Assembly (NCBI GenBank): GCA_013329615.1
Contig: DUKA01000095.1
Span: forward strand, 1 to 36,613
DNA: 36,613 nt
Reading direction: 5' to 3'
Origin: Candidatus Bathyarchaeota archaeon
GTDB lineage: Archaea; Thermoproteota; Bathyarchaeia; TCS64
The notes under the pieces are model-generated. The model did no database searches. It was not told the origin of the DNA and saw only the letters and a program-made list of their open reading frames with translations. The position numbers and the translations under genes were made by a program. Of this stretch, positions 3,818 to 34,842 are shown in pieces. Position 1 is the stretch's first letter, and every line of letters starts with the position of its first letter.

Positions 3818-4816
3818 CTACTTCTCGAGCCCGCTCATCTTCCTGATCTGCCTGCCGACCTTCTCGATCTCGAGCCCGTCGACCTCCTCCATGAGCGCCT
3901 TGAAGTTCTTGGAGCCGCCCTTGTACTCGGCCATCCAGTCCTTTGCGAACTTGCCGCTCTGGACATCCTTCAGCACCTTCCTCATGTTCTCCTCGACACG
4001 GTCGTCGACGATCACAGGCCCAACGGTGAGGCCGCCCCACTTCGCCGTGTCGCTCACGGCGCGGTACATGCCCCCGATGCCCGACGTATAGATCAAGTCA
4101 ACGATCAGCTTGAGCTCATTACAGACCTCAAAGTACGCCAACTCGGGCGGGTAACCCGCGTCGACCAACACCTTGAAGCCGCGGCGGATGAGCTGATCCG
4201 CGCCTCCGCAGAGGACAGCCTGCTCACCGAATAGGTCCTCCTCAGTCTCGTCCTTAAACGATGTCTCGAGGACACCCGCCTTGCCGCTACCAAGCGCCTT
4301 GGCGATCGCGAGGGCCGTCTGCAGCGCCTTGCCCGACGCGTCCTGCTGGACGCTGACGAGCGCCGGCACACCGAAACCCGCCTCATACTGACGGCGAAGC
4401 TCCGCGCCGGGGCTCTTCGGGGCGACCATGATGACGTCCACATCCTTCGGCGGCTTGATGGCACCGTAGAGGATGTTGAAGCCGTGTGCGAACTGGAGCG
4501 TCTTGCCCTTCTTCATAGCGAGGGCGACCTCCTCCTTCCACACCGTGGGCTGTGCCATGTCGGGGACAAGCATCAGCACGATGTCCCCCTTCTGCGCCGC
4601 CTCGAGGACCGTCGTCACCTTGACGCCGTCAGCCTCGGCCTTCTTCCAGCTCTTGCCACCCGGGCGGAGACCGACGACCACGTCGACCCCGCTGTCCTTC
4701 ATGTTAAGGGCCTGTGCCCTGCCCTGGCTTCCGTAGCCGATCACGGCGACGGTCTTACCCTTCAACGCCTTGTCGTCTATGTCCTTCTCGTGGTATACCT
4801 TCACCAATGCATTCAC
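3818..4816 (-). CDS. ilvC: Ketol-acid reductoisomerase (class I)
   Basis: 332 aa. N-terminal Rossmann motif VAVIGYGSQGRAQALN, and conserved C-terminal knotted-domain blocks (FGEQAVLCGG, ELAYFE). Follows ilvN with a 4-nt overlap. Confidence 0.97.
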   Translation of the reverse strand: MNALVKVYHEKDIDDKALKGKTVAVIGYGSQGRAQALNMKDSGVDVVVGLRPGGKSWKKAEADGVKVTTVLEAAQKGDIVLMLVPDMAQPTVWKEEVALAMKKGKTLQFAHGFNILYGAIKPPKDVDVIMVAPKSPGAELRRQYEAGFGVPALVSVQQDASGKALQTALAIAKALGSGKAGVLETSFKDETEEDLFGEQAVLCGGADQLIRRGFKVLVDAGYPPELAYFEVCNELKLIVDLIYTSGIGGMYRAVSDTAKWGGLTVGPVIVDDRVEENMRKVLKDVQSGKFAKDWMAEYKGGSKNFKALMEEVDGLEIEKVGRQIRKMSGLEK

Positions 4817-5315: not shown

Positions 5316-7007
5316 TTATGCCTCCAGCAGCGCGTCCTTGAGCCCCGCACCCGGCGGAACTATGGGGTACACGTTCTCCTCTGGGTCTATTGGTACATCG
5401 ATGACTGTCGAGACGTCGCTCTTTATGGCGCGCCTGACGGCGGCCTGGAAGCCTTCGAGGGTGTCGACCCTGACTCCCTCAGCCCCGTACGCCTCTGCGA
5501 GCTTCACCATGTCAGGGTTGCCCTTGAGCTTAACCGCGGAGTAGCGGTGGTCGAAGAAAAGGCGCTGCCACTGCGCGACCATGCCGAGCATGTGATTGTT
5601 GAGCACGACGACGACCACGGGGAGGTCCTCCTCGATGCTCGTCGCCATGCTGTTCTCGGTCATGCCGAAGCTTCCGTCGCCCGCGATGTCGACGACGGGG
5701 ACGTCGGGCCTCGCCGCCTTGACGCCTATCGCGGCTGGGAAGCCCCAGCCCATCGTGCCTAGGCCGCCGCTCGTGAAGAATGTGCGTGGGTCGTATGCGT
5801 CGTAGTGTAGCGCCGCCCACATCTGGCACTGGCCGACCTCCGTAGTGACTATCGCCTCGCGTGGGAGAGCGTTACGCAGCGTCTTGACGACGTCGGGTGC
5901 CCTGAGGTAGCCCTCCTTGTGCCCGTTGCCGGTGCCATTCATCTGGAGGCGGAACTCGGAGACCCTCTTGCTCCACTGGGAGCCGGCGTCGCCGCTGGCG
6001 CGTAGCTTGCTCACGTTGTAGAGCAGACCGCGCAGGCCGAGGCTGGCGTCTCCGACGACGCGTGTCACGGTCTCCACGTTCTTGTCTATCTCGCTCCTGT
6101 CGATGTCGAGGTGGATGACCTTCGCGTTTGGCGCGAAGCTCTTCACGGAGCCTGTCGTCCTGTCGCTGAGGCGCGCCCCGGCGATTAGGAGCACATCCGC
6201 CTCTGGGACGAGGTTGTTCGCCGCCTGCGTGCCATGCATGCCGCACAGGCCGAGGCTGAGCGGGTGGTCAGCGGGGAACGCGCCCTTGCCCATTAGTGTT
6301 GTTGCGGTTGGTGCCATAAGGTACTCGCATAGGGCGACCAGCTCGCGGCTCGCGCCGGAGTTGATGATGCCGCCGCCGGCGACCACGACGGGTCTCTGCG
6401 CCTTCGCTAGCAGGTTCGCCGCCCACTCCACCTCGCGCGGGTCGGGCTGGTAGTTGGGGTGGTAGCCCCTGAGCTTGACGGTCTCGGGGAAGCTGACGTC
6501 CTCCACATCCGTGGTGACGTCCTTGGGCAGGTCGACGAGGACCGCGCCCCGCCGCCCCGTCGAGGCGATCTGGAAGGCGGTCTTGACCGCTTTCGGTATC
6601 TCACTTGCCTTCCTGACCTGCATGTTGTACTTGGTGACGGAGGCGCTGCACCCGATGATGTCGACCTCCTGGAAGGCGTCTGTGCCGATGGTGGCGCGTG
6701 TGACCTGCCCCGTGAAGGCGACGACGGCACTCGAGTCGCTGTGTGCGGTAGCGATGCCGGTGACGACGTTTGTCGCGCCAGGTCCCGAGGTGGCGAGACA
6801 GACCCCGACTCCGCCCGTCGCGCGGGCGTAGCCGTCAGCCATGTGAGCGGCCCCCTGCTCGTGCCGCGCCAGGATGAACCTGAAGTCTCCGTTTAGTATC
6901 TCGTCGCAGAGCGGGATGACGACCCCGCCGGGGAGCCCGAAAACGTATTTGACACCCTCCAATTCGAGGGACTTCACGAATGCCTTTGTGCCAGCCATCT
7001 CAACCAT
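5316..7007 (-). CDS. ilvB: Acetolactate synthase large (catalytic) subunit, ThDP-dependent, copy 1
   Basis: ThDP-enzyme blocks are SGPGATN, GTDAFQE and GDGSFxM...NN. The track starts at TTG 7043. ATG 7007 (MVEMAGTKAFVKSL) has GGAGG 9 nt upstream and aligns residue-for-residue with the start of copy 2 (MTEMTGAEAYVKAL), so 7007 is preferred. Confidence 0.95.
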   Translation of the reverse strand: MVEMAGTKAFVKSLELEGVKYVFGLPGGVVIPLCDEILNGDFRFILARHEQGAAHMADGYARATGGVGVCLATSGPGATNVVTGIATAHSDSSAVVAFTGQVTRATIGTDAFQEVDIIGCSASVTKYNMQVRKASEIPKAVKTAFQIASTGRRGAVLVDLPKDVTTDVEDVSFPETVKLRGYHPNYQPDPREVEWAANLLAKAQRPVVVAGGGIINSGASRELVALCEYLMAPTATTLMGKGAFPADHPLSLGLCGMHGTQAANNLVPEADVLLIAGARLSDRTTGSVKSFAPNAKVIHLDIDRSEIDKNVETVTRVVGDASLGLRGLLYNVSKLRASGDAGSQWSKRVSEFRLQMNGTGNGHKEGYLRAPDVVKTLRNALPREAIVTTEVGQCQMWAALHYDAYDPRTFFTSGGLGTMGWGFPAAIGVKAARPDVPVVDIAGDGSFGMTENSMATSIEEDLPVVVVVLNNHMLGMVAQWQRLFFDHRYSAVKLKGNPDMVKLAEAYGAEGVRVDTLEGFQAAVRRAIKSDVSTVIDVPIDPEENVYPIVPPGAGLKDALLEA

Positions 7008-7233
7008 AGACATGCGCCTCCAAAGAGTAGAATCGGGTACCAAGCCATGCAGCTTGATCCTTTGCGGAACTCACTACAAACTGTTTAGACTCACTCGGGG
7101 TAGAGCTACCGAATAAAGCGATACCCCATCTACGCCACCCTCCACTCGGCGGCCATGATAAAGCGATACCCCATGACACCAATCTCCAAACGGTATGTAG
7201 GGGGAAGAGCGGCGGCACCGAATAAAAGGTTTG
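7008..7233 (-). promoter_or_regulatory. ilvB-1 promoter box plus long leader with two abutting mini-ORFs and hairpins
   Basis: Minus-sense CAAACCTTTTATTCG lies at 7233..7219. Mini-ORF 7174..7130 encodes MGYRFIMAAEWRVA. Mini-ORF 7129..7106 encodes MGYRFIR. A hairpin pairs GGGGTA with TACCCC (plus coordinates 7122-7127 / 7097-7102). A second hairpin is CAAGC-n6-GCTTG (7041-7056). GGAGG lies at 7021..7017. The architecture is mirrored upstream of ilvB-2. Confidence 0.5.
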
Positions 7234-7317
7234 TGAAAATATTCGGGACACACACATTTGGCTCAGTTACCCTTAACACCACCCACCGACCGATCCTACA
7301 CCGTAGAGTTGAGCCCA

Positions 7318-8538
7318 ATGAGTAAGATGACGCACCTAGAATGCTCGAAGTGTGGCACGCGCCACGACGCGGATCAGCTACAGACGGTCTGCAAGAAGTG
7401 CGGCAAGCCACTCTTCCCACGATACGACCTCGAGGCGGCGAAGGAGACGCTCACGAAGCGGGAACTCGTGGGCAGGGTCGCCTCGATGTGGAGGTACAGG
7501 GAGATACTCCCAGTCAGGAAGGCGGAGAACGTCGTCACCCTAGGCGAGGGCTGGACGCCACTCACCCCGACCCCGAAGCTCGGGGAGACGCTCGGCCTCA
7601 AGAACCTCAGGGTGAAGGACGAGGGTATCATCCCGACTGGCAGCTTCAAGGCGAGGGGCCTCAGCGCAGCCATAAGCAAGGCGAAGGAGCTAGGCGTCAA
7701 GCGCGTCGCCCTGCCCTCCGCCGGAAACGCGGCGGGCGCCATGGCCACCTACGGTGCACGCGCCGGCATGGAAGTCTACGTCTTCATGCCCGAGGACGCC
7801 CCCAACGTCAACGCAGTCGAATCCGACATCGTCGGCGCCAAGGTCGTCCTAGTCAAGGGACTCATAAGCGACGCCGGAAAACTCGTCAAAGACGGCACAC
7901 AAGAGATGGGCTGGTTCAGCGTCGCCACCCTAGGGGAGCCATACAGGGTCGAGGGAAAGAAGACCATGGGGCTCGAGGTCGCGGAGCAGCTCGACTGGAA
8001 GCTGCCCGACGTCATCATCTACCCCACCGGCGGAGGAACCGGCATCATCGGCATGTGGAAGGTCTTCGACGAACTCGAGGAGATGGGGTGGATAGGCAGC
8101 GAGCGCCCACGTATGGTGAGCGTTCAAGCGGAGGGCTGCAGTCCCGTCATCAAGGCGTATAGGGAGGGCAAGGAGGAGAGTGAGTTCTTCACCGGGGCGA
8201 ACACGGTCGCCGCCGGGCTGCGCGTCCCCAAGGCGCTCGGAGACTTCCTCATACTCAAGGCGGTCCGCGAGAGCGGGGGAGAAGCCATCTCCGTCACCGA
8301 CGACGAACTGATGGCGGATGTGCGCCTGATAAGCCGCCTAGAGGGCATATTCGCGTGCCCCGAGGGTGCAGCCACCATCTCCGCCCTACGTAAGATGGTA
8401 GAACAGGGCAAAGTCGACAGGGACGAACGCGTCGTACTCTTCAACACCGGCTCCGGGCTGAAGTACACCGACCTCTTCAAGGTCAAGGCGATCGTAGCCG
8501 ACCCGAAGAAGCCCTTCGACTACAACACCCTCAAGTAG
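7318..8538 (+). CDS. thrC: Threonine synthase (with N-terminal zinc-ribbon)
   Basis: PLP-lysine motif GSFKARG, N-terminal CSKCG...CKKCG zinc ribbon, and PALP-fold blocks. The track starts at TTG 7258. The first ATG (7318, MSKMTHLECSKCG) is preferred. Confidence 0.93.
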   Translation: MSKMTHLECSKCGTRHDADQLQTVCKKCGKPLFPRYDLEAAKETLTKRELVGRVASMWRYREILPVRKAENVVTLGEGWTPLTPTPKLGETLGLKNLRVKDEGIIPTGSFKARGLSAAISKAKELGVKRVALPSAGNAAGAMATYGARAGMEVYVFMPEDAPNVNAVESDIVGAKVVLVKGLISDAGKLVKDGTQEMGWFSVATLGEPYRVEGKKTMGLEVAEQLDWKLPDVIIYPTGGGTGIIGMWKVFDELEEMGWIGSERPRMVSVQAEGCSPVIKAYREGKEESEFFTGANTVAAGLRVPKALGDFLILKAVRESGGEAISVTDDELMADVRLISRLEGIFACPEGAATISALRKMVEQGKVDRDERVVLFNTGSGLKYTDLFKVKAIVADPKKPFDYNTLK

Positions 8539-12797: not shown

Positions 12798-13418
12798 CTA
12801 AGTTAGGAGGCTCGTCAGGAACTGGACGAGCAGCTGCGCCCTTCCCGTGATGTATGTTATCCTCGTCATTGCCACCTGTCCGAACATGGCTCCGAAGAAG
12901 AGCATCATGAAGTACCGCCCCGTGGTCTTCACCCGTGCCCCGCCGGCACCTCCTTCGACGGTGAAGAGGAAGTAGGTGAGGGTCGAGACTACGCCTGCGA
13001 GCACAAGGACGGCGTTGAGGGTCGCCATCGGGTCTCCCCAGATGATCACCGGCTGCATCGACGCCTTGATCTGGTCGTAGATGTAAGTGTGGGCGGCACC
13101 GCGTATGGCTAGCCCGACGCCGACCCCACTCATCACCGCCACGGGCCACTGGCTCAGCTTGCCCAGCCTCTTCGAGTAAACCGTGAAGAGGAGGAGCCCG
13201 AGGGCTACGGGTATCGCGAGGGTCAGGTTACCGCCGAGCAGGGGGTTCATCCCGCTCGACTGGAGGCTCCGCACCGCCATAACGACGACGTTTCCGAGGG
13301 AGATGCCGACAAAGAGCGCCTCAGCCATCCTGTAGGCGGGGTTCTCCCGGTAGAGGACGTAGCTCAGCACGGCGACGGTGAGGCCGATCGCGACCCATGA
13401 TTCGAGGGCGGGTATCAC
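12798..13418 (-). CDS. Polytopic membrane protein (206 aa), 4th gene of the four-gene membrane operon
   Basis: Several hydrophobic segments of about 20 aa. The GTG start overlaps the upstream stop as GTGA. Confidence 0.75.
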   Translation of the reverse strand: MIPALESWVAIGLTVAVLSYVLYRENPAYRMAEALFVGISLGNVVVMAVRSLQSSGMNPLLGGNLTLAIPVALGLLLFTVYSKRLGKLSQWPVAVMSGVGVGLAIRGAAHTYIYDQIKASMQPVIIWGDPMATLNAVLVLAGVVSTLTYFLFTVEGGAGGARVKTTGRYFMMLFFGAMFGQVAMTRITYITGRAQLLVQFLTSLLT

Positions 13419-14242
13419 TGCTTCCGCCTCCTGAGCCTCTCGCCGACGAAGGCGACGTTGCCGAGGACGATGAAGGCTATCACCACGAGCTGCCCCATAC
13501 TCAGGGCATCTATACCCTGGTTAGCGAGCCCAGGGGCGCCGATTAGCTGCTCATACTCTGCGCAGCCACGGGGCCCGTTGAGTATCGCCTCGACTGAGCC
13601 GGCTTGGTAGAGTGGGTAGAAGTAGCTGAAGTTGACGGCGGTGGGGACACTGAGGACGGGTGTGCCGTACTTTGCCTGCCACTGGCGTGCATAGAAGCCA
13701 GTGGCGGTCCCCGCATCGAATGTCACGACGAGCCTATAGGCGGAGTAGTCGTCTGCCGCTTGGAGCAGTGGGAGCGACGCGGCGTCGTTTCCGGCGTAGT
13801 CCCTGCTGTAGACCTCCCGCATGTTCTCGGCTATGCTGGCGATCATCGTCTCGTCCCCCGCGGCGTAGCCCAGGTTGACGTAGTCGACGCCGTAGCCGTA
13901 CCCCGCCGATGTGAGCACCGGTCTGAAGTACTGGTCGAAGACGAGCGACCCCTCGGCGACCGTGGAGACGGCGACCACCTTGACGCCCTGCGCACTGAGT
14001 TGCTTGGCGAGTGCTATGATTCCACCGCCAAGCTCGGAGACGCTGCCCAGCCCTATGTCCATGGAAACTAGGACAACGTCCCCGGGCGCGAGTGCGTCGA
14101 TTGTGGTCTTGAATTCGGTGCTGTATGTGCTGATCTGCATGGGTAGGCCTAGCGGGACGGCGTATGGGAGGGCGATGAGTAGTAACATTGCCCAGTACAT
14201 CACCCTGCGGTCCATCTTGGCGAGCCTTTCGAGGGCGCTCAT
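13415..14242 (-). CDS. Bitopic membrane protein: N-terminal TM, ~200-aa non-membrane domain, C-terminal TM (275 aa), 3rd gene
   Basis: The N-terminal TM is VMYWAMLLLIALPYAV and the C-terminal TM is LVVIAFIVLGNVAFV, followed by RLRRRKQ. ATGA overlap with the upstream gene. By eye it shares blocks with the 1st gene (PGDVVLVSMDIGLGSVSE vs GRGVIFSTGSGSGGLNSD). Confidence 0.75.
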   Translation of the reverse strand: MSALERLAKMDRRVMYWAMLLLIALPYAVPLGLPMQISTYSTEFKTTIDALAPGDVVLVSMDIGLGSVSELGGGIIALAKQLSAQGVKVVAVSTVAEGSLVFDQYFRPVLTSAGYGYGVDYVNLGYAAGDETMIASIAENMREVYSRDYAGNDAASLPLLQAADDYSAYRLVVTFDAGTATGFYARQWQAKYGTPVLSVPTAVNFSYFYPLYQAGSVEAILNGPRGCAEYEQLIGAPGLANQGIDALSMGQLVVIAFIVLGNVAFVGERLRRRKQ

Positions 14243-14859
14243 TTGGCTACCCTCCCGCGTTCGAAGCCGAGTATCTGCCTTACGCCCGCTATGATGGCGC
14301 CGACGGCGAAGGCTATGGTGAAGCCGCGGTTGCCACCGAGGCTGACTATGTCGTTCAGCCAGTTGCCGAGGGGCAGGACGCCGGGGAGGAGGTACTCGCC
14401 GACGGGCATGTTCTTCAGCATGATCATCGCGGCCGCCGCGAGGACTATCCCCGCCTCAAGGCTGCGCGCCCGGAAGGTGCGGAACGCCGCGGAGACTATG
14501 AAGAAGCCTATGAAGCTCCCCACCGACATGCTAAGGGGCGTTAGTATGTTGCTGGTCAGCCAACTATACTGGGACGAGGAGGGACTCAACGCGAGACCGA
14601 TGGCTATCGTGCCAAGCGCCGAGGCAACGGCGACGCCGCTGTAGACTGAGCGCTTCTTCACGATCTGCCTGCCATTGTATGCGACGTAGCTGAATAGGCC
14701 TAGTAGCGTAGCGAAGCCCGCAATGATTATCCCCCATAGCTGGAGGCTGCCGCTCGCCGAGGCGAGTGAGGCGTTGTCCGTGAAGTAGCTCGCGATTACG
14801 AGCGTGCAGGCTGCGACGCCGATGGCTATCGGTATCTCCCTGCGGTTGATGAGTGACAT
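14239..14859 (-). CDS. Polytopic membrane protein (206 aa), 2nd gene
   Basis: Multiple hydrophobic segments. The ATG lies 1 nt after the upstream TAG. Confidence 0.75.
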   Translation of the reverse strand: MSLINRREIPIAIGVAACTLVIASYFTDNASLASASGSLQLWGIIIAGFATLLGLFSYVAYNGRQIVKKRSVYSGVAVASALGTIAIGLALSPSSSQYSWLTSNILTPLSMSVGSFIGFFIVSAAFRTFRARSLEAGIVLAAAAMIMLKNMPVGEYLLPGVLPLGNWLNDIVSLGGNRGFTIAFAVGAIIAGVRQILGFERGRVAK

Positions 14860-14860
14860 G

Positions 14861-15643
14861 CTACACGCCTCCTGCGATGAGCAGCTGGCTCAGCCATGCA
14901 ACGCTGATCGTGGACAGTATAGCGCCACCCACGACGAGGGTTATTACGAGTACCTTCGTTGCCTCGGCGGCGAAGACGCTGCCGAGCAGTGCCTTGTCCC
15001 CCGAGAGGTAGGCGCCTGTGACGAACATCTCCTCCCCGATGAGGACGTAGTCGCAGCTGGCGATCTGGAAGGGGAGGTTGACGCTGTCGGGCTGACCAGC
15101 TATCTGGAAGGCGCCGACGGCGTTACCCGTCTCGCTTAGTAGCAGTGCCTCGCTCCAGAATATGCCGAGCCAGAGGGCGGCGGCGGGGCGCTCCTCCTCC
15201 ATCCTGCCCATGCAGGCGCTAGCGTAGCCCCACCCCTTGCCGTAGTACTGGACGGCGGCGTCGCTGTACGCCTCGGGCTCACCCGCGACCGTGTAGGCGT
15301 CGCGCATGGTGTCCTGTGCCAGAGGCATCAACTCGGGGTACGCCGAGACGAAGGTAAGAGGCGTCTGCGCCGTCGCGGCTAGGTTCGCAACGTAACCGAG
15401 CGTGTTCAGCCCCGCCAAGTGGTAGGGCGCAGAGTCGCTGTTCAGGCCGCCCGAGCCGGAGCCCGTGCTGAATATGACGCCGCGCCCCATCTCGGCGCTG
15501 CGTCCCACGGCCTCCTTGATGACCTCGAGGCCGGGGATGCGGCGCAGCTCGCGGTACCGCCCCTTGCTCCCCGCGTACAGGGAGACGAGTGTGGCGGCGA
15601 GTATGAAGATTAGCAGGGCGAGGACGCCGATCCTCTGGATCAT
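14861..15643 (-). CDS. Bitopic membrane protein: N-terminal TM, ~200-aa non-membrane domain, C-terminal TM, 1st gene
   Basis: The track starts at GTG 15688 (275 aa). ATG 15643 (MIQRIGVLALLIFILAATLV..., 260 aa) begins directly at the TM helix and is preferred. The C-terminal TM is VLVITLVVGGAILSTISVAWL. Confidence 0.7.
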   Translation of the reverse strand: MIQRIGVLALLIFILAATLVSLYAGSKGRYRELRRIPGLEVIKEAVGRSAEMGRGVIFSTGSGSGGLNSDSAPYHLAGLNTLGYVANLAATAQTPLTFVSAYPELMPLAQDTMRDAYTVAGEPEAYSDAAVQYYGKGWGYASACMGRMEEERPAAALWLGIFWSEALLLSETGNAVGAFQIAGQPDSVNLPFQIASCDYVLIGEEMFVTGAYLSGDKALLGSVFAAEATKVLVITLVVGGAILSTISVAWLSQLLIAGGV

Positions 15644-15730
15644 GGCGCCGCGCCTCCGGTGCACCCGGCAACCAAGCGGCGAACCCACTGTGACTGGGGC
15701 TCGTTAGAATAACCGCTGGGTGAACGAGAG

Positions 15731-21590: not shown

Positions 21591-22733
21591 TTGACCTTGT
21601 CTGTTGAGTGGTCCTTGAAGCGCCTCGGCTTTGTTGTTAACCCGGTTGCAGGGATGGGTGGCCGCGTCGGGTTGAAGGGCAGCGACGGCGCGGAGACGCT
21701 GAGGAGGGCGAGGGAGTTGGGCGCAACTGAGATGTCGCCGACGAGGGCGACAGAGGCCCTGAGGCACCTCGCTGCGATAAAGGACCAGTTTGAGCTTGTC
21801 ACCTACCCGGGGGAAATGGGGGAGGACGAGGCGCGGGCAGCTGGCTTCGAGCCGAGGGTATTAGGCAAGATCAAGGCGGGGAGTACGACCTCGGCGGACA
21901 CGAAGGCGGCGGCCGCCGAGATGGCGTCCTTAGGTATCGACCTGCTCCTCTTCGCGGGCGGCGACGGTACGGCGCGGGACATCTGTGAGGCCATCGACGG
22001 CAAGGTCCCCGCCCTGGGCATCCCCACGGGGGTCAAGATACACTCGGGCGTCTACGCGGTCTCACCTGCCGCTGCAGGGGTGCTCGCCGTCAAGTACCTC
22101 ACGGGGGAGGTCACGTCGGTGCAGCAGGCGGAGGTCATGGACGTAGACGAGGACGCCTTCCGTGACAACAGGCTCAGCGCGCGCCTCTACGGCTACCTGC
22201 GTGTGCCCCGGGAGGAGGCGTACATGCAGGGGAGCAAGGAGGCGACCCCGGTCGACGAGGGAGAGAACATCAAGGCGATAGCCGCCGACCTCGCCGACGA
22301 GATGGACCCAGACACCCTCTATGTCCTCTGCCCCGGCTCCACCATAAGCAGTGTGGCCGAACACCTCGGGCTCGAGAAGACGCTCCTCGGCGTCGACGTG
22401 GTCAAGGGGGGTAAGATAATTGCTAAGGATGTTAACGAGGAGCAGCTCCTCAAGCTGGTCACGGGTAAGAGGGCGAAGATAGTGGTCACTGTTATCGGGG
22501 GGCAGGGCTTCGTCTTCGGTAGGGGCAACCAGCAGATAAGCGCGCGCGTAATACGCGCCGTGGGGAGGGAGAACATCGTAATAGCCGCCACGCCGGCGAA
22601 GCTCGCCACCCTACACGGCAAGCCGCTCCTCGTGGACACCGGCGACACGGTCCTCGACGCCGAACTCGCGGGCTACACGCGCGTCGTCACCGACTACGGT
22701 AGACGCGTAGTCTACCGAATAAAATCCGGCTAG
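21591..22733 (+). CDS. ATP-NAD kinase-like protein (COG3199 type, AcoX-like)
   Basis: VVNPVAGMGGRVGLKGSDG and LLLFAGGDGTARD (GGDGT motif). TTG start in the track, so the start is uncertain. Its stop overlaps the stop of the convergent permease gene (CTAG at 22730-22733). Confidence 0.8.
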   Translation: MTLSVEWSLKRLGFVVNPVAGMGGRVGLKGSDGAETLRRARELGATEMSPTRATEALRHLAAIKDQFELVTYPGEMGEDEARAAGFEPRVLGKIKAGSTTSADTKAAAAEMASLGIDLLLFAGGDGTARDICEAIDGKVPALGIPTGVKIHSGVYAVSPAAAGVLAVKYLTGEVTSVQQAEVMDVDEDAFRDNRLSARLYGYLRVPREEAYMQGSKEATPVDEGENIKAIAADLADEMDPDTLYVLCPGSTISSVAEHLGLEKTLLGVDVVKGGKIIAKDVNEEQLLKLVTGKRAKIVVTVIGGQGFVFGRGNQQISARVIRAVGRENIVIAATPAKLATLHGKPLLVDTGDTVLDAELAGYTRVVTDYGRRVVYRIKSG

Positions 22734-24094
22734 CGGCCGAAGTTGTCACTTTCCGGTTCGTAGACGTAGCCGAGGGATGGGTCCTTGATCATGTAGAGGA
22801 CGCTACCGTGTTTGTATACGATCGTGACCCCCTCTCTCTTGATTATATTTGTGAAAGCCTCCAAGTTCTGGACGGTTATCATCGTCGTGGGCGGGTAGAC
22901 GTTTTCGAAGTAGAGGCTCTCCGGCAGCTCAATGTTCGGGGCGTCGGAGTAGAGCAACGCCCCCGCTTTACCGATCTTACTCGAGACGTTTATCCAGTCC
23001 GCCTTCTCGTCCTCGACGACCCCCAAGTGGGCGTTCCATAGAAACACGGATAGGAAACCGATGACGGCAACGGCAGACAAGATCTTCAAGGTTCTGCGTT
23101 TATCCTCTCTGAGGTAGTTCACGGCGTCGAAGAAGGGTTTCCTCAAATCCGTGAGCCCATGTGGGATGAGGAGCATGGCAAAATACACTATGACGGCGGG
23201 TATGACCGGCCTAAATTCGCCCATCCAGCTGCCGACGTTAATTTGAGCCCAGAGGATAGACCCTATTTCTATTACTCCGACGATGAAGGCGGCAACGACA
23301 GCCAATGTGAGGGACTCGAAACCGCTGAGGACACCGATTGCTAGGAGGGGGATCATAATGAAGGTGTTTCCCCCCGGGTCTATGTGTAAAAAGGGGGGAA
23401 AGAGCGACCCCGCAACACATGCGAGCCCGCCGCTGAGTGTCCACACGACGAGTCTAACCTTCCACGGGTCTACGCCCTGTATCATGGCCAGTTCCGGGTT
23501 CTCCCCAGAGGCCACCAACGTCATTCTGAAAACAGTCTTGTTCCGAAGCACGAGTAACGAAAAGTAGACGCCCAGACACACGAGGGGTATGATGTAGAAG
23601 ATGCCACGGATACCAAGCAGCTCAAAATCGAACAATATCATGGAGTGGAAGATATGCGTCGATAGCTTGGATTGGTAGTAGTCTAGCCAGTATGCGCTTA
23701 TCCAGAGTATCGCGCCTCCGATTATCTGGACGGCTATTGTCGAGAGGGTGCGGAGCACGGTGTCGTCCCCCCTTCGCTCCATGATACCTTCGATGCCCCG
23801 ATACTGCGCCCAGCCAAGAAGACAACCCGCGGCGAAGGCCAACAAGGGACCCGTGTAGATGTTCAACCCTAGGTTGAAGGCGACCCCCGACGAAAAGACG
23901 CCCAGCCACATATACACGATGATAGAAAAATCGGGTATCCCCGACACTCTGTGCCTCAAGACCAGCGCTAAGCCGAGTAACGAGAGTAAGCCCGCGTAAC
24001 AAAGGCATAGCAGATAAATCTGGTAATCCAACCCAAGTTTAAATTTCTCATGAAGATATAAAACATGACCTAGCGGCCAAAAAAGGAGCCACAC
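22730..24094 (-). CDS. LivH/LivM-type (branched-chain amino acid ABC) permease-like membrane protein with an extra ~100-aa C-terminal non-membrane domain
   Basis: The block LVASGENPELAMIQGVDPWKVRLVVWTLSGGLACVAGSLF resembles the conserved cytoplasmic loop of LivH/LivM permeases (R..EN...A...G......K...F..S...AG.AG.L). Many TM segments. No ATPase or binding-protein gene is adjacent. GTG start, uncertain. Confidence 0.65.
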   Translation of the reverse strand: MWLLFWPLGHVLYLHEKFKLGLDYQIYLLCLCYAGLLSLLGLALVLRHRVSGIPDFSIIVYMWLGVFSSGVAFNLGLNIYTGPLLAFAAGCLLGWAQYRGIEGIMERRGDDTVLRTLSTIAVQIIGGAILWISAYWLDYYQSKLSTHIFHSMILFDFELLGIRGIFYIIPLVCLGVYFSLLVLRNKTVFRMTLVASGENPELAMIQGVDPWKVRLVVWTLSGGLACVAGSLFPPFLHIDPGGNTFIMIPLLAIGVLSGFESLTLAVVAAFIVGVIEIGSILWAQINVGSWMGEFRPVIPAVIVYFAMLLIPHGLTDLRKPFFDAVNYLREDKRRTLKILSAVAVIGFLSVFLWNAHLGVVEDEKADWINVSSKIGKAGALLYSDAPNIELPESLYFENVYPPTTMITVQNLEAFTNIIKREGVTIVYKHGSVLYMIKDPSLGYVYEPESDNFGR

Positions 24095-32961: not shown

Positions 32962-33159
32962 CAAACCTTTTTATTCGATACGCGGGTTGGAATAGCTCAC
33001 ATCCCGCAAGGGAGGATGGAACATGGGGTATTGCTTTGTCGAGCCCCCGAATGCGGGGGAAAGTTGAATGGGGAATCGTATTCTTAGTTAACAGATTCCC
33101 ATCCGAACCCAAGAACGTTGGATCATTGATCCAAGGAAAGATTCTGGAGGATACCATGC
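32962..33159 (+). promoter_or_regulatory. ilvB-2 promoter box plus long leader with two abutting mini-ORFs and hairpins
   Basis: CAAACCTTTTTATTCG lies at 32962-32977. Mini-ORF 33023-33067 encodes MGYCFVEPPNAGES. Mini-ORF 33068-33091 encodes MGNRILS. Hairpins are CCCCCG/CGGGGG (33044-33059) and GGGAATC/GATTCCC (33071-33100). The palindrome TTGGATCA-T-TGATCCAA lies at 33118-33134. GGAGG lies at 33146-33150, 9 nt before ATG 33160. Confidence 0.5.
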
Positions 33160-34842
33160 ATGACTGAGATGACCGGCGCCGAGGCGTACGTCAAGGCGCT
33201 AGAGAAGGAGGGCGTCAAATACCTCTTCGGGGTAACCGGCGCCGCAATCATACCCATCTGCGACGACCTGCTGAAGTCGAAGATTCGCTACATAGGTGGC
33301 GCCCACGAGCAGGGCTCAACCCACATGGCGGACGGCTACGCGCGCGTCTCCGGGCACCCCGGTGTCGTGCAGGTCACTAGCGGCCCAGGCGCGACGAACA
33401 TAGTCACAGGGCTCGCCACGGCGCAGCTCGATTCCTCGCCAGTTGTCGCCCTCACCGGGCAGGTCCCACTCAGCATGGTCGGCACAGACGCCTTCCAAGA
33501 GGTCGACATCATAGGCATCACCGCCTCCGTCACCAAGCACAACATACAGGTCATGGAGGCGGTGGAGATACCGCACGCCATCAAGTCGGCCTTCTACATC
33601 TCCTCGACCGGAAGGAAGGGCGCCGTCCTCGTGGATATCCCGAAGGACACCCAGACGGACAAGGCGGATATGGTCTTCCCGGATAAGGTCGAGTTCCGCG
33701 GCTACCACCCGAATATCGAGCCCAACTCGCAGGAGATGCACTGGGCAGCGACGCTCCTCGCAAAGGCGCGGAGACCAGTCATCATCGCGGGAGGCGGAGC
33801 AATCGCATCGGGAGCAACGATGGAACTCATCGAACTCGCCGAGATGCTGCAAGCCCCCGTAGCCACCAGCCTCATGGGGAAGGGGGCCATACCCAGCAAC
33901 CACCCACTCAGCCTCGGTCTCTGTGGGATGCATGGCCGCTGCGAGGCGAACTACATCGTCCCCGAGGCGGATGTCCTCCTAGTCGTTGGAGCACGCTTCA
34001 GCGATCGCACGACGGGCTCCCTCCGAGGCTTCGCCCCAAACGCACGCATAATTCACATCGACGTCGACCGCAGCGAGATAGACAAAAACGTCGACAGTAT
34101 CACACGCATAGTCGGAGACGCCAAACTCGCGATACGGGGCATCCGCGAGAAGGTCGCCCAGCAGAGGAACACGGGGCACACAGATGAGGACCTCGTGAAG
34201 AGGATCAAGGAATTCAAGGCACAGTCGGACACCCTCAACACGTCGCCACTCTCCGGCCCAGAAGTCATACGAGCGATAAGACGCGCCATGCCCCCAGACA
34301 GCATAGTCGTAACTGATGTTGGACAACACCAGATGTGGGCTGCGCAGCACTACGATGTCCGCGGACCCGGCGAGTTCTTCACGAGCGGCGGATTGGGCAC
34401 CATGGGCTGGGGGACGCCCGCAGCCATAGGCGCCAAGGCGGCGAGGCCCGACCTCCCCCTGTTGAACATCTCCGGCGACGGCAGCTTCGCCATGACCGAG
34501 AACAACCTAGCCATCGCCGTCGACGAGGGTTTCCCAGTCACCGTCGTGATCCTGAACAACGGCGTCCTCGGAATGGTCGCACAGTGGCAACGCCTCTTCT
34601 ACAACCGCAGATACAGCACGATACAACGCCCGAAGCACCCCGACTTCGTGAAACTAGCAGAGAGCTACGGGGCCACGGGGGTGAAGGCGGAGTCGACGAA
34701 GCAGATAGAGACCGCCATCAAGCGCAGCATCAAGGAGAAGCAGACCACCGTCATCGATGTCCCGATGGACCCTGAGGAAAACGTTTACCCCATGATCCCG
34801 CCGGGCATGGGGCTCAAGGACATCCTCCTAGGAGGCGCCTAA
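33160..34842 (+). CDS. ilvB: Acetolactate synthase large subunit, copy 2 (paralog of 5316..7007)
   Basis: 560 aa with the same ThDP-enzyme blocks. About two-thirds of residues are identical to copy 1 over an N-terminal ~146-aa stretch counted by hand. Confidence 0.95.
   Translation: MTEMTGAEAYVKALEKEGVKYLFGVTGAAIIPICDDLLKSKIRYIGGAHEQGSTHMADGYARVSGHPGVVQVTSGPGATNIVTGLATAQLDSSPVVALTGQVPLSMVGTDAFQEVDIIGITASVTKHNIQVMEAVEIPHAIKSAFYISSTGRKGAVLVDIPKDTQTDKADMVFPDKVEFRGYHPNIEPNSQEMHWAATLLAKARRPVIIAGGGAIASGATMELIELAEMLQAPVATSLMGKGAIPSNHPLSLGLCGMHGRCEANYIVPEADVLLVVGARFSDRTTGSLRGFAPNARIIHIDVDRSEIDKNVDSITRIVGDAKLAIRGIREKVAQQRNTGHTDEDLVKRIKEFKAQSDTLNTSPLSGPEVIRAIRRAMPPDSIVVTDVGQHQMWAAQHYDVRGPGEFFTSGGLGTMGWGTPAAIGAKAARPDLPLLNISGDGSFAMTENNLAIAVDEGFPVTVVILNNGVLGMVAQWQRLFYNRRYSTIQRPKHPDFVKLAESYGATGVKAESTKQIETAIKRSIKEKQTTVIDVPMDPEENVYPMIPPGMGLKDILLGGA

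What the first reader, a model, noticed from the sequence alone, without database searches (positions are those of the whole stretch)
7106..7174. Perfect 17-nt direct repeat in the ilvB-1 / thrC divergent region encodes tandem MGYRFI mini-ORFs
Plus-strand ATAAAGCGATACCCCAT occurs at 7113-7129 and again at 7158-7174 (perfect copies, 45 nt period). Read in ilvB sense, each copy begins an ORF. The distal one runs 7174..7130 (14 codons), and its TAG (7132..7130) touches the ATG of the proximal one, 7129..7106 (7 codons).
SD-like GGAG lies 9 nt before the distal ATG, and GGAGGG lies 8 nt before the proximal ATG.
The proximal copy also re-creates CTTTATTCGGT. This resembles the putative TATA region CTTTTATTCGGT further upstream, so an internal alternative promoter is also conceivable.
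An internal duplication that preserves the ATG, the frame and the SD is hard to explain as chance in a 69-nt stretch.
Basis: seen in the sequence. Interest (0 to 1): 0.8.

Follow-up and report, generated by a model that had tools for sequence, protein, structure and literature searches.

The report
Dual-frame leader before archaeal ilvB
The repeated 17-mer is two copies of a sequence conserved across Bathyarchaeia at the start of branched-chain amino-acid genes, where a short reading frame overlaps a longer frame shifted by one base, which most likely means ribosomes change frame there to control these genes.

Summary
ATAAAGCGATACCCCAT lies at 7113-7129 and 7158-7174, and in ilvB sense gives two abutting mini-ORFs, each with an SD-like sequence.

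It is not a local duplication. The same tandem architecture precedes the window's second ilvB (33023-33091) and ilvB in 43 Bathyarchaeia genomes. It also precedes a threonine-dehydratase-like gene, and a single copy opens about 69 LeuA/CimA-family genes.

The nucleotides are conserved, not the peptide: TAT, TTT and ATT are 7-10% codons in this 60% GC genome, and codon 4 flips Arg/Cys/Ser.

It is open in 45/45 leaders and ends on a stop that overlaps the ilvB start. In the LeuA/CimA genes the enzyme itself is in frame +1, with DTTLRDGEQ at +49, and at least 29 loci have no start codon in that frame.

Best reading: a translated leader with a programmed +1 frameshift, prfB-like in layout, in which a slippery NUU sits before an Ile, Val or Leu sensor codon. 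Shifted ribosomes reach the ilvB start.

This rests on comparison alone. Initiation at a non-canonical start codon in frame +1 is the main rival. No cellular +1 frameshift is known in Archaea.

The parts
7221..7229 (-). TATA-like box CCTTTTATT of the ilvB-1 leader promoter, preceded by A-rich CACAAA
   Evidence: Read. It aligns without gaps to CCTTTTTATT before ilvB-2. A TATA-like element starts 50-56 nt before ATG1 in the ilvB-type leaders.
7184..7187 (-). SD-like GGAG, 9 nt before the distal ATG
   Evidence: An SD-like sequence precedes ATG1 in 33/33 leaders that have an intact distal motif.
7130..7174 (-). uORF1 (frame 0), MGYRFIMAAEWRVA + TAG. Its first 17 nt are the distal repeat copy (7158-7174).
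   Evidence: There are 13-14 codons in relatives, and the stop abuts ATG2.
7134..7153 (-). Hairpin H1 inside uORF1 (GCCGCC / GGUGGC). Its 3' side carries the SD-like GGAGGG for uORF2.
   Evidence: A hairpin sits at this place in all leaders, built from different arm sequences: CCCCC/GGGGG, UCCCUC/GAGGGG, UCUCC/GGAGG, AUCCG/CGGAU.
7106..7129 (-). uORF2 (frame 0), MGYRFIR + TAG. Its first 17 nt are the proximal repeat copy (7113-7129).
   Evidence: In relatives it reads MGY[RC]FI plus 0-3 residues. It is the better conserved of the two copies.
7097..7126 (-). Hairpin H2: GGGGUA of uORF2 pairs with UACCCC downstream, enclosing uORF2
   Evidence: It is the consensus pairing in three clades. In ilvB-2 it is GGGAAUC/GAUUCCC, where the U-to-A change is compensated.
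7000..7173 (-). Frame +1 ORF, open through both motifs (reads ..WGIALS..WGIALF..). It ends at TGA 7002..7000 inside ATGGTTGA, the ilvB start.
   Evidence: It is open in 45/45 leaders, register is kept over 14 lengths, and the stop lies on or next to the ilvB start. There is no 3-periodicity of substitutions.
7036..7060 (-). Hairpin H3 in the spacer (GGAUCAAGC / GCUUGGUACC)
   Evidence: Compensatory changes occur within the window's clade: GGACUUAGC/GCUUGGUCC, GGGACCCCACC/GGGUCGGGUCUC, GGAACCAUCC/GGAUGGGUUCC.
5316..7013 (-). ilvB-1 (acetolactate synthase large subunit). The start conserved in relatives is the ATG at 7007.
   Evidence: TIGR00118, 714 bits; relatives are 563 aa.
33023..33067 (+). 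ilvB-2 leader uORF1, MGYCFVEPPNAGES + TGA, with internal hairpin 33044-33059
33068..33091 (+). ilvB-2 leader uORF2, MGNRILS + TAA. Hairpin H2 spans 33071-33100.
33024..33167 (+). Frame +1 ORF of the ilvB-2 leader, ending at TGA 33165-33167 inside ATGACTGA, the ilvB-2 start at 33160

Best explanation
The 17-mer is two copies of a class-wide Bathyarchaeia cis-element, AUGGGGUAUYGYUUU[A/G]UY. It works at the level of translation, as a leader read in two frames.

Shown:
- The ilvB-1 mRNA starts about 20-25 nt upstream of uORF1, as inferred from the TATA position.
- Two short frame-0 ORFs lie head to tail, each with an SD-like sequence.
- A hairpin in uORF1 covers the SD-like sequence of uORF2.
- A third reading frame, +1 relative to both ATGs, is open from the motifs to a TGA that overlaps the ilvB start codon. 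It has no conserved start codon of its own.

Inferred mechanism:
- Ribosomes start at the frame-0 ATG.
- The SD-like GGGGUAUY holds them with the slippery codon 5 (UUU; AUU or GUU in some leaders) in the P site.
- Codon 6, the sensor, then sits in the A site. It is Ile AUY in both copies here; elsewhere it is Val GUY or Leu CUY.
- If the matching charged tRNA is plentiful, the ribosome stays in frame 0 and terminates within a few codons. uORF1 terminators re-initiate at the abutting ATG of uORF2 and get a second chance.
- If that tRNA is scarce, the P-site tRNA slips +1. The ribosome then runs in frame +1 through the structured spacer and terminates on the ilvB start, which switches on or boosts ilvBNC translation by termination-reinitiation and unfolding.

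In the related LeuA/CimA-family genes the same shift puts the ribosome directly into the enzyme's frame.
For: - Conservation: the motif is present before ilvB in 43 of 44 Bathyarchaeia genome loci with usable upstream sequence, and before both ilvB genes of the window. It is absent from the Nitrososphaeria loci.
- Frame 0 is used: ATG/GTG starts, SD-like sequences, a stop abutting ATG2 drawn from all three stop codons, and in-frame fusions.
- Frame +1 is used: it is open in 45/45 leaders. The per-locus shuffle probability is 0.03-0.45 (median 0.18) for the 44 tested. Fourteen different lengths all keep register, and the stop falls on or next to the ilvB start (ATGGTTGA, ATGACTGA, TTGGTTGA, ATGA overlap).
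- In four loci frame +1 is closed by TAA immediately before the motif. Three of these, plus L019, have no ATG/GTG/TTG anywhere in the +1 ORF.
- LeuA/CimA-type loci (65 analysed, plus 5 chosen by protein): the catalytic DTTLRDGEQ lies at +49 in frame +1, and at least 29 loci have no canonical start in that frame. The only conserved start is the frame-0 ATG, which has an SD-like sequence in 58/65.
- Gene callers give N-termini from 446 to 565 aa for proteins more than 81% identical.
- The constraint is on nucleotides, not on the peptide.
- Sensor-codon pattern: LeuA/CimA-type Ile; threonine-dehydratase-like Ile+Ile; ilvB-1 type Val+Ile (Ile+Ile here); ilvB-2 type Val+Leu. Only UUU-R or [AG]UU-C combinations occur.
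- The +1 peptide is not conserved, only its openness, as expected if ribosome transit is what matters.
- Precedents: RF2 has a short 0 frame, the SD-like GG_GGG, and the shift site CUU_U or UUU_U. Hungry codons favour +1 shifts. An ermC leader frameshift activates the downstream gene by transit (PMC5009743).
Against: - There is no experimental or expression data. Everything is comparative.
- The shift site is not pinned down. Variable motif positions (6, 9, 12 and 15, counted from the A of ATG as 0) are third positions of the +1 codons GGN AUH GYN UUN. That would suit a shift as early as codon 2, or initiation at AUH in frame +1. NCBI's pipeline annotates exactly that start (MALSNRFPEKIR).
- In most Val-type leaders frame +1 holds a UUG (inside UUUGUC) 7 nt after GGGG, so direct initiation there cannot be excluded.
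- Only one or two sensor codons are present.
- The LeuA-versus-CimA identity of the synthase is unresolved, so the Ile logic for it is not secure.
- The ilvB SD is not clearly sequestered.
- The sensor-codon and slippery-codon patterns rest on few independent lineages.
- The SD-like spacing (6 nt from GGGG) differs from RF2.
Confidence: 0.5

Rival explanations
1. There is no frameshift. Frame +1 is entered by direct initiation at a non-canonical or weak start: the AUH Ile codon 7 nt after the ATG, or UUG inside UUUGUC with GGGG acting as its SD. The overlapping frame-0 mini-ORF is then a competing or regulatory uORF that masks or feeds that start, for example by backward re-initiation after termination.
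For: - Positions 7-9 are AUU, AUC or AUA and never AUG.
- PGAP annotates this start in several MAGs.
- UUG lies 7 nt downstream of GGGG in most Val-type distal copies.
- Some LeuA/CimA loci have ATG/GTG/TTG in frame +1 a few codons upstream.
Against: - GGGG is 1 nt from AUH, and the true SD is 13-19 nt away, so the geometry is poor. The well-placed frame-0 ATG would out-compete it.
- The proximal copy and all LeuA/CimA copies have UUA, which is not a start.
- Upstream in-frame starts sit at no conserved position and are absent in at least 29 loci.
- The regulatory logic runs the wrong way: starvation stalling on the uORF would cover the AUH.
Confidence: 0.2
2. Classical leader-peptide control without any frame change. 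The two mini-ORFs sense branched-chain aminoacyl-tRNAs by stalling, and stalling remodels hairpins H1/H2/H3 to change transcription termination or ilvB initiation.
For: - The uORFs are conserved, have SD-like sequences, and carry Ile, Val or Leu codons at position 6.
- Hairpins are conserved with compensatory changes.
Against: - It does not explain the open +1 frame with conserved register ending on the ilvB start.
- It does not explain the LeuA/CimA enzyme frame.
- There is no terminator-like element.
- Only one or two regulatory codons are present.
- The peptide is not conserved.
Confidence: 0.12
3. The repeated motif is a binding site for a trans-acting factor, and the reading frames are incidental. 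The factor could be a transcription regulator acting on DNA. It could also act on the RNA, as a protein, a tRNA (T-box-like, with AUY/GUY/CUY as the specifier) or a small ligand that recognises the H2 loop UAUYGYUUUAUY.
For: - Conservation is at nucleotide level, against codon bias.
- There are two copies at a fixed spacing.
- The loop is closed by a conserved GGGG/CCCC stem.
- The specifier-like codon varies with the pathway.
Against: - Spacing is 42, 45 or 39 nt, that is multiples of three (one locus has 44), rather than helical phasing.
- Stop-codon choice, ATG/GTG use, in-frame fusions and frame +1 register are coding signatures.
- There are no inverted repeats and no Rfam or T-box match.
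- The proximal site would lie about +70 from the start of transcription, which is too far for promoter occlusion.
Confidence: 0.08

Closest known systems
Bacterial release factor 2 (prfB) autoregulatory +1 frameshift
   Same: A short frame-0 ORF is followed by the functional frame at +1. An SD-like G-run (GG_GGG) lies just upstream of a slippery NUU codon (CUU_U, or UUU_U in some species). The shift is triggered by slow decoding of the next codon, and sensor and effector are the same event (PMC5009743). From my memory, the E. coli site is AGG GGG UAU CUU UGA C, which shares GGGGUAUC with this motif.
   Different: The slow codon here would be a sense codon for Ile, Val or Leu, not a UGA stop. 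The G-run is 6 nt, not 3 nt, from the slippery codon and overlaps the start codon. The domain is Archaea. In the window the +1 frame is a non-conserved transit ORF, not the enzyme. Copies are in tandem.
ermC leader: ketolide-induced frameshift that activates the downstream gene
   Same: [quoted passage not shown] This unfolds the mRNA and allows initiation of the main gene (PMC5009743 section 28). It matches the ilvB-type layout, where the +1 ORF ends on the ilvB start.
   Different: In ermC the shift is induced by a drug and goes to a different frame. It occurs in bacteria, with no tandem copies, no SD-like stimulator and no metabolic sensing.
Bacterial leader-peptide attenuators of ilv operons (ilvBN, ilvGMEDA leaders)
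   Same: They serve the same pathway. A short upstream ORF carries codons for the end-product amino acids, and different isozymes sense different amino-acid combinations (established knowledge).
   Different: Those leaders use runs of regulatory codons and a terminator/antiterminator switch. Here there are only one or two sensor codons, no terminator, and a second reading frame.
Hungry-codon +1 frameshifting (Ty1 CUU_AGG_C; starvation-induced shifts in E. coli)
   Same: A slow A-site codon plus a P-site tRNA that can re-pair at +1 with one imperfect pair (PMC5009743).
   Different: Ty1 relies on a constitutively rare tRNA and makes a fusion protein. No natural case is known to me in which such a shift regulates amino-acid biosynthesis.
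Saccharolobus solfataricus fucA1 -1 frameshift
   Same: It is the only experimentally supported cellular programmed frameshift in Archaea (PMC8211752).
   Different: It is a -1 shift on the A_AAA_AAT heptamer, in a single gene and a single lineage, with no known regulatory role.

Membership tests
prfB-like autoregulatory +1 programmed frameshift | Short frame-0 ORF, with the downstream functional or continuing ORF in frame +1 and no start codon of its own | tested here: met
   The +1 ORF is open in 45/45 ilvB leaders. In LeuA/CimA-type loci the enzyme is in frame +1, and at least 29 have no canonical start.
prfB-like autoregulatory +1 programmed frameshift | Slippery P-site codon able to re-pair at +1 (CUU_U / UUU_U) | tested here: inconclusive
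   UUU-A/G or [AG]UU-C is always present, and re-pairing leaves one mismatch. The shift site itself has not been identified.
prfB-like autoregulatory +1 programmed frameshift | In-frame UGA stop as the slow A-site codon, sensing RF2 | tested here: not met
   The next codon is a sense codon (AUY, GUY or CUY). Frame-0 stops follow 0-10 codons later at variable distance.
prfB-like autoregulatory +1 programmed frameshift | SD-like sequence a few nt upstream of the shift codon | tested here: met
   GGGG is invariant, 6 nt upstream of codon 5. The spacing differs from the 3 nt of RF2.
prfB-like autoregulatory +1 programmed frameshift | Trans-frame protein product demonstrated | not testable with these tools
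   This needs proteomics or a reporter assay.
Bacterial leader-peptide transcription attenuator | Run of several codons for the regulating amino acid in the leader ORF | tested here: not met
   There are one or two Ile, Val or Leu codons per mini-ORF.
Bacterial leader-peptide transcription attenuator | Intrinsic terminator with a mutually exclusive antiterminator before the structural gene | tested here: not met
   There is no hairpin-plus-T-run. The hairpins present are not followed by T tracts.
ermC-type translational attenuation leader | The RBS of the main gene is sequestered in a structure that leader translation opens | tested here: inconclusive
   The spacer is structured (H3 covaries), but the ilvB SD is not consistently paired. 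The stop of the +1 ORF overlaps the ilvB start.
T-box or any Rfam family | Match to a curated covariance model | tested here: not met
   no hit at gathering score in the whole window; only a chance DicF hit, E = 9.6.
Operator of an Lrp-type or other archaeal transcription factor | Dyad-symmetric site overlapping the BRE/TATA or the transcription start | tested here: not met
   no inverted repeats. The copies lie about 25 and 70 nt downstream of the inferred transcription start.

The most novel reading that the evidence does not exclude
Bathyarchaeia control branched-chain amino-acid biosynthesis with an amino-acid-sensing programmed +1 ribosomal frameshift. The genes involved are LeuA/CimA-family synthase, threonine dehydratase and two AHAS isozymes. 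The cassette consists of a start codon, an SD-like GGGGUAUY, a slippery NUU, and one Ile, Val or Leu 'hungry' sensor codon. It diverts ribosomes into the productive +1 frame only when the cognate charged tRNA is scarce. Tandem cassettes give two-input control. If true, this would be the first cellular +1 frameshift in Archaea and, as far as I know, the first natural frameshift switch that senses an amino acid in any domain.
Probability: 0.35. Interest if true: 0.95.

Novelty: new variant of a known kind. Interest (0 to 1): 0.85.

Why it matters
- No cis-acting amino-acid sensor of the leader-peptide type, and no cellular +1 programmed frameshift, has been shown in Archaea. The 2021 review PMC8211752 lists one -1 case only.
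- Here a sharply defined 18-nt element is conserved across a whole class of abundant sediment and soil archaea, at the head of four branched-chain amino-acid gene families. It offers a directly testable candidate for both.
- There is also a practical consequence. Hundreds of Bathyarchaeia LeuA/CimA-family genes in public databases have wrong or inconsistent N-termini, truncated past the catalytic DTTLRDGEQ or extended through the promoter, because gene callers cannot find a start in the enzyme's frame.
- The tandem form in the window suggests two-input control of AHAS isozymes: Ile+Ile for ilvB-1 and Val+Leu for ilvB-2. This parallels the isozyme-specific attenuation known in enterobacteria, reached by a different mechanism.

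Tried and rejected
- Known RNA families: no Rfam hit in the window or in the leader. No tRNA or tmRNA.
- Bacterial-type promoter or terminator scan of 6900-7400: nothing.
- Peptide-level conservation: rejected. Codons 3 and 4 change radically while rare codons stay fixed.
- Internal promoter from the CTTTATTCGGT resemblance: rejected as unsupported. TTTATT is part of the conserved motif, CGGT is specific to this clade, and there is no A-rich BRE.
- A conserved canonical start codon for frame +1: searched for and not found, either in ilvB leaders or in LeuA/CimA loci.
- A conserved +1 peptide: rejected, because substitutions show no codon periodicity.
- A locus that would separate the two candidate shift sites: P0177 looked like a possible frame-0 stop at codon 4, but it proved to be CGA, so it is uninformative.
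- Literature searches for archaeal leader peptides, frameshifting in isopropylmalate or citramalate synthase, and Bathyarchaeota recoding found no description of this element.
- About 35 of the 120 metagenome pattern hits lie inside unrelated ORFs or AT-rich DNA and were set aside as chance.
Full report
**1. The observation**

The 17-mer ATAAAGCGATACCCCAT lies at 7113-7129 and 7158-7174, and the two copies are perfect. Shuffles of the window give 0.03 matches at up to 3 mismatches. Three are observed, the third at 33023-33039 on the other strand.

In ilvB sense the sequence reads GGAG-N9-ATG GGG TAT CGC TTT ATC ATG GCC GCC GAG TGG AGG GTG GCG TAG | ATG GGG TAT CGC TTT ATT CGG TAG.

The flanking genes are:
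- ilvB-ilvN-ilvC on the minus strand and thrC on the plus strand;
- a second ilvB-ilvN at 33160 onward;
- a pantoate kinase, which marks an archaeon.

Close relatives of IlvB are annotated as Bathyarchaeota/Bathyarchaeia MAGs.

**2. It is an old, conserved architecture, not a local duplication**

The upstream regions of the window's two ilvB genes encode proteins that are 60% identical. They align without gaps from a TATA-like box through both mini-ORFs: 14 codons, a stop abutting the next ATG, then 7 codons.

I fetched 80 ilvB loci from species-representative genomes.
- The 36 Nitrososphaeria loci lack the motif.
- Of the 44 Bathyarchaeia loci, 43 carry it. L007 has no usable upstream sequence. 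L046, 55% identical, also lacks the motif.

With the window's two leaders this gives 45 leaders, with these features:
- The distal ORF has 13-14 codons.
- Spacing is 45 nt (24 loci), 42 nt (9), 39 nt (1) or 44 nt (1). The other 10 have a diverged distal ORF.
- The stop abuts ATG2 in 35 loci (TAA 20, TAG 9, TGA 6), overlaps it as TAATG in 4, and is missing with the frame kept (one fused ORF) in 6.
- The proximal start is GTG in one clade.
- SD-like sequences precede ATG1 in 33/33 and ATG2 in 44/45.
- A TATA-like element starts 50-56 nt before ATG1.

The use of all three stop codons, the ATG/GTG alternation and the frame-preserving fusions are signatures of translation, not of a DNA or RNA binding site. 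Perfect identity of the two copies is peculiar to the window's clade. Elsewhere the distal copy reads ..TTTGTC and the proximal copy ..TTTATT.

**3. The peptide is not what is conserved**

Across these leaders codon 3 is Tyr, Asn, His or Cys, and codon 4 is Arg, Cys, Ser, Asn or His. Meanwhile GGG, nAU, nGy and nUU stay fixed.

The window's genome is 60% GC. In it TAT is 10% of Tyr codons, TTT is 9% of Phe, ATT is 7% of Ile, TTA is 2% of Leu and GCT is 6% of Ala. Whichever frame is read, the motif is written in disfavoured codons, so the constraint is on the nucleotides.

**4. A third reading frame**

The distance from the proximal ATG to ilvB is almost always 2 mod 3, although the length varies. 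In all 45 leaders frame +1, relative to both ATGs, is open from the proximal motif for 97-160 nt. Where the distal motif is intact it is usually open from there as well.

This frame stops on the ilvB start:
- ATGGTTGA, ATGACTGA, TTGGTTGA, ATGGCTGA or GTGGTTGA in most loci;
- in the apparent exceptions, an ATGA overlap, TGAcATG, ATGGTAG or ATGCTTAG.

Frame 0 always stops within 18-27 nt, and frame +2 within 17-74 nt.

Shuffling each spacer gives P(open) of 0.03-0.45, median 0.18, including 0.03-0.05 for AT-rich leaders. The observed result is 44/44 of the spacers tested, and 14 distinct lengths keep register.

In L009, L015, L017 and L037 a TAA closes frame +1 immediately before the motif (TAATGGGG). 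L009, L015, L017 and L019 have no ATG, GTG or TTG anywhere in the +1 ORF.

Substitutions in the +1 ORF show no codon periodicity: 61, 57 and 64 at positions 1, 2 and 3. Its openness is selected, not its peptide. The spacer also holds hairpins with compensatory changes (H3).

In the window the +1 ORF runs from 7173 to TGA 7002..7000 for ilvB-1, and from 33024 to TGA 33165-33167 for ilvB-2.

**5. The same motif heads other pathway genes**

They sort as follows:
- About 69 are single copies lying 41-48 nt downstream of a strong TATA box, with an SD-like GTGAT or GAGG before the ATG (58/65). They stand at the 5' end of a LeuA/CimA-family gene. NCBIfam places it in the 2-isopropylmalate synthase subfamily; JGI calls it D-citramalate synthase.
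- 14 are ilvB leaders.
- 2 are tandem leaders before a threonine-dehydratase-like gene, again with the +1 ORF ending on its start, TTGGCTGA.
- About 35 are chance matches.

In the synthase loci frame 0 gives MGY[RC]FI plus 0-10 residues and then a stop. The enzyme is in frame +1, reading (K)WGI[AV]L..FPxKIRxFDTTLRDGEQ, with the catalytic motif at exactly +49. At least 29 of 65 loci have no ATG, GTG or TTG in that frame between the upstream in-frame stop and the catalytic motif. That stop is often at -2, -5 or -8. Where starts do exist, their positions are not conserved.

Five loci chosen by protein similarity rather than by motif show the same arrangement.

Gene callers betray the problem. Proteins more than 81% identical are annotated with 446 to 565 residues. 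Some are truncated beyond DTTLRDGEQ, some are extended through the TATA box, and PGAP starts some at the ATY Ile codon as MALSNRFPEKIR.

L153 is an intermediate. It has one motif, then a 73-codon remnant of the synthase in frame +1, then ilvB. The ilvB-2 leader of the window still reads ..NRFP.. in frame +1. The ilvB leaders therefore probably derive from the 5' end of the synthase gene.

**6. Mechanism**

What is shown:
- two abutting frame-0 mini-ORFs that look translated;
- a +1 ORF with no conserved start of its own, whose only conserved upstream start codon is the frame-0 ATG;
- termination of that ORF on the start of the structural gene;
- a motif constrained at nucleotide level.

What I infer is a programmed +1 frameshift inside the motif. 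The motif can be read as a cassette: start codon, then SD-like GGGG(UAUY), then 2-6 nt, then slippery codon 5 (UUU, or AUU/GUU), then codon 6.

Codon 6 is always an NUY codon for Ile, Val or Leu, and it tracks the gene:

| Gene | Sensor codon(s) |
|---|---|
| LeuA/CimA-type | Ile |
| Threonine-dehydratase-like | Ile + Ile |
| ilvB-1 type | Val + Ile (Ile + Ile in the window's clade) |
| ilvB-2 type | Val + Leu |

Only UUU-A/G and [A/G]UU-C occur, so +1 re-pairing always leaves exactly one mismatch. This is the layout of the RF2 site: a short 0 frame, the SD-like GG_GGG, the shift site CUU_U or UUU_U, and a slow next codon (PMC5009743). The difference is that a 'hungry' sense codon takes the place of UGA. 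Slow A-site codons are known to favour +1 shifts.

The consequence in the ilvB leaders resembles the ermC leader. There a drug-induced frameshift lets ribosomes translate into the spacer and activate the downstream gene.

Hairpin H1 in uORF1 covers the SD of uORF2, and H2 pairs the GGGG of uORF2 with a downstream CCCC. ATG2 is therefore probably reached mainly by ribosomes that terminate uORF1, which gives unshifted ribosomes a second chance to shift.

**7. Uncertainties and rivals**

The shift site is not established. The variable motif positions 6, 9, 12 and 15 are third positions of the +1 codons GGN AUH GYN UUN. That pattern would also fit a shift right after codon 2, or initiation at the AUH codon, which is what PGAP chooses.

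One variant argues the other way. In L201 codon 4 is CGA, which is synonymous in frame 0 but changes Ala to Asp in frame +1.

Most Val-type distal copies place a UUG in frame +1 7 nt after GGGG, so direct initiation there is possible. But the proximal copies, the window's distal copy and all synthase copies have UUA instead.

A purely stalling-based leader, or a factor-binding site, fails to explain the +1 frame.

My estimates:
- About 0.5-0.55 that a +1 frameshift occurs, and about 0.35 that it is the amino-acid sensor proposed.
- About 0.2 for non-canonical initiation.
- About 0.12 for plain leader-peptide control.
- About 0.08 for a factor-binding site.

**8. Novelty**

No Rfam family matches. 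Searches of the literature found no description of this element. The 2021 review of archaeal recoding lists a single cellular case, the -1 frameshift in fucA1, and no cellular +1 frameshift (PMC8211752).

I file this as a new variant of known kinds, namely regulatory leader ORFs and autoregulatory +1 frameshifting. It lies in a domain and a pathway where neither has been shown.

Noticed in passing
window 33010-33167 (+): The second ilvB (ilvB-2, 33160-34842) has the same leader: TATA-like 32968-32975, GGGAGG, uORF1 MGYCFVEPPNAGES, an abutting uORF2 MGNRILS, and a +1 ORF ending in ATGACTGA. Its sensor codons are Val and (Ile-)Leu, not Ile and Ile. The same ilvB-2 type leader lies a few kb from ilvB-1 in L014, L015, L017 and L024.
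   Followed up: yes
L081-L200 (e.g. L086 7852-7869; L127; L179) and P0121-P0240: LeuA/CimA-family genes of Bathyarchaeia have their only conserved ATG one base out of frame with the enzyme. Public annotations of proteins more than 81% identical range from 446 to 565 aa. Many lack the catalytic DTTLRDGEQ, and others are extended through the promoter.
   Followed up: yes
L153, motif at oriented position 1976, ilvB about 250 nt downstream: Evolutionary intermediate. A single motif is followed in frame +1 by a 73-codon remnant of the synthase (..FDTPLRDGEQTPGVSLTPENK..), and then by ilvB. This suggests the ilvB leaders arose from the 5' end of the synthase gene.
   Followed up: partly
L094 (tandem motifs at oriented positions 4502 and 4544) and L164: The same tandem leader, with Ile+Ile sensor codons, precedes a 321-aa threonine-dehydratase-like gene. 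The +1 ORF ends in TTGGCTGA on its start.
   Followed up: partly
L047, L053-L056, L059, L062, L063, L065, L071, L076 (about 60 nt upstream of ilvB): Nitrososphaeraceae ilvB genes lack the motif. They share their own conserved leader, ..TTTTAGTAGTACTTTAGATTAAGTTTTATCCAACTT.., a few tens of nt before the start. It may be an unrelated cis-regulatory element.
   Followed up: no
window 7018-7029 and 7184-7195: The SD contexts of ilvB-1 and of uORF1 are 83% identical 12-mers. In ilvB sense they read TACTCTTTGGAG and TACCGTTTGGAG (repeat D2). This may be chance or shared ribosome-binding context.
   Followed up: no
window 7231-7250 (+): The thrC promoter region lies back to back with the ilvB-1 TATA box. 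It includes an AAAATATT stretch about 75 nt before the thrC ATG at 7318. thrC has no copy of the motif.
   Followed up: no
window 12798-15688 and 22730-24094: ORFs here include a permease component of a branched-chain amino-acid ABC transporter (22730-24094, PF02653). No copy of the motif, at up to 3 mismatches, is associated with them.
   Followed up: partly
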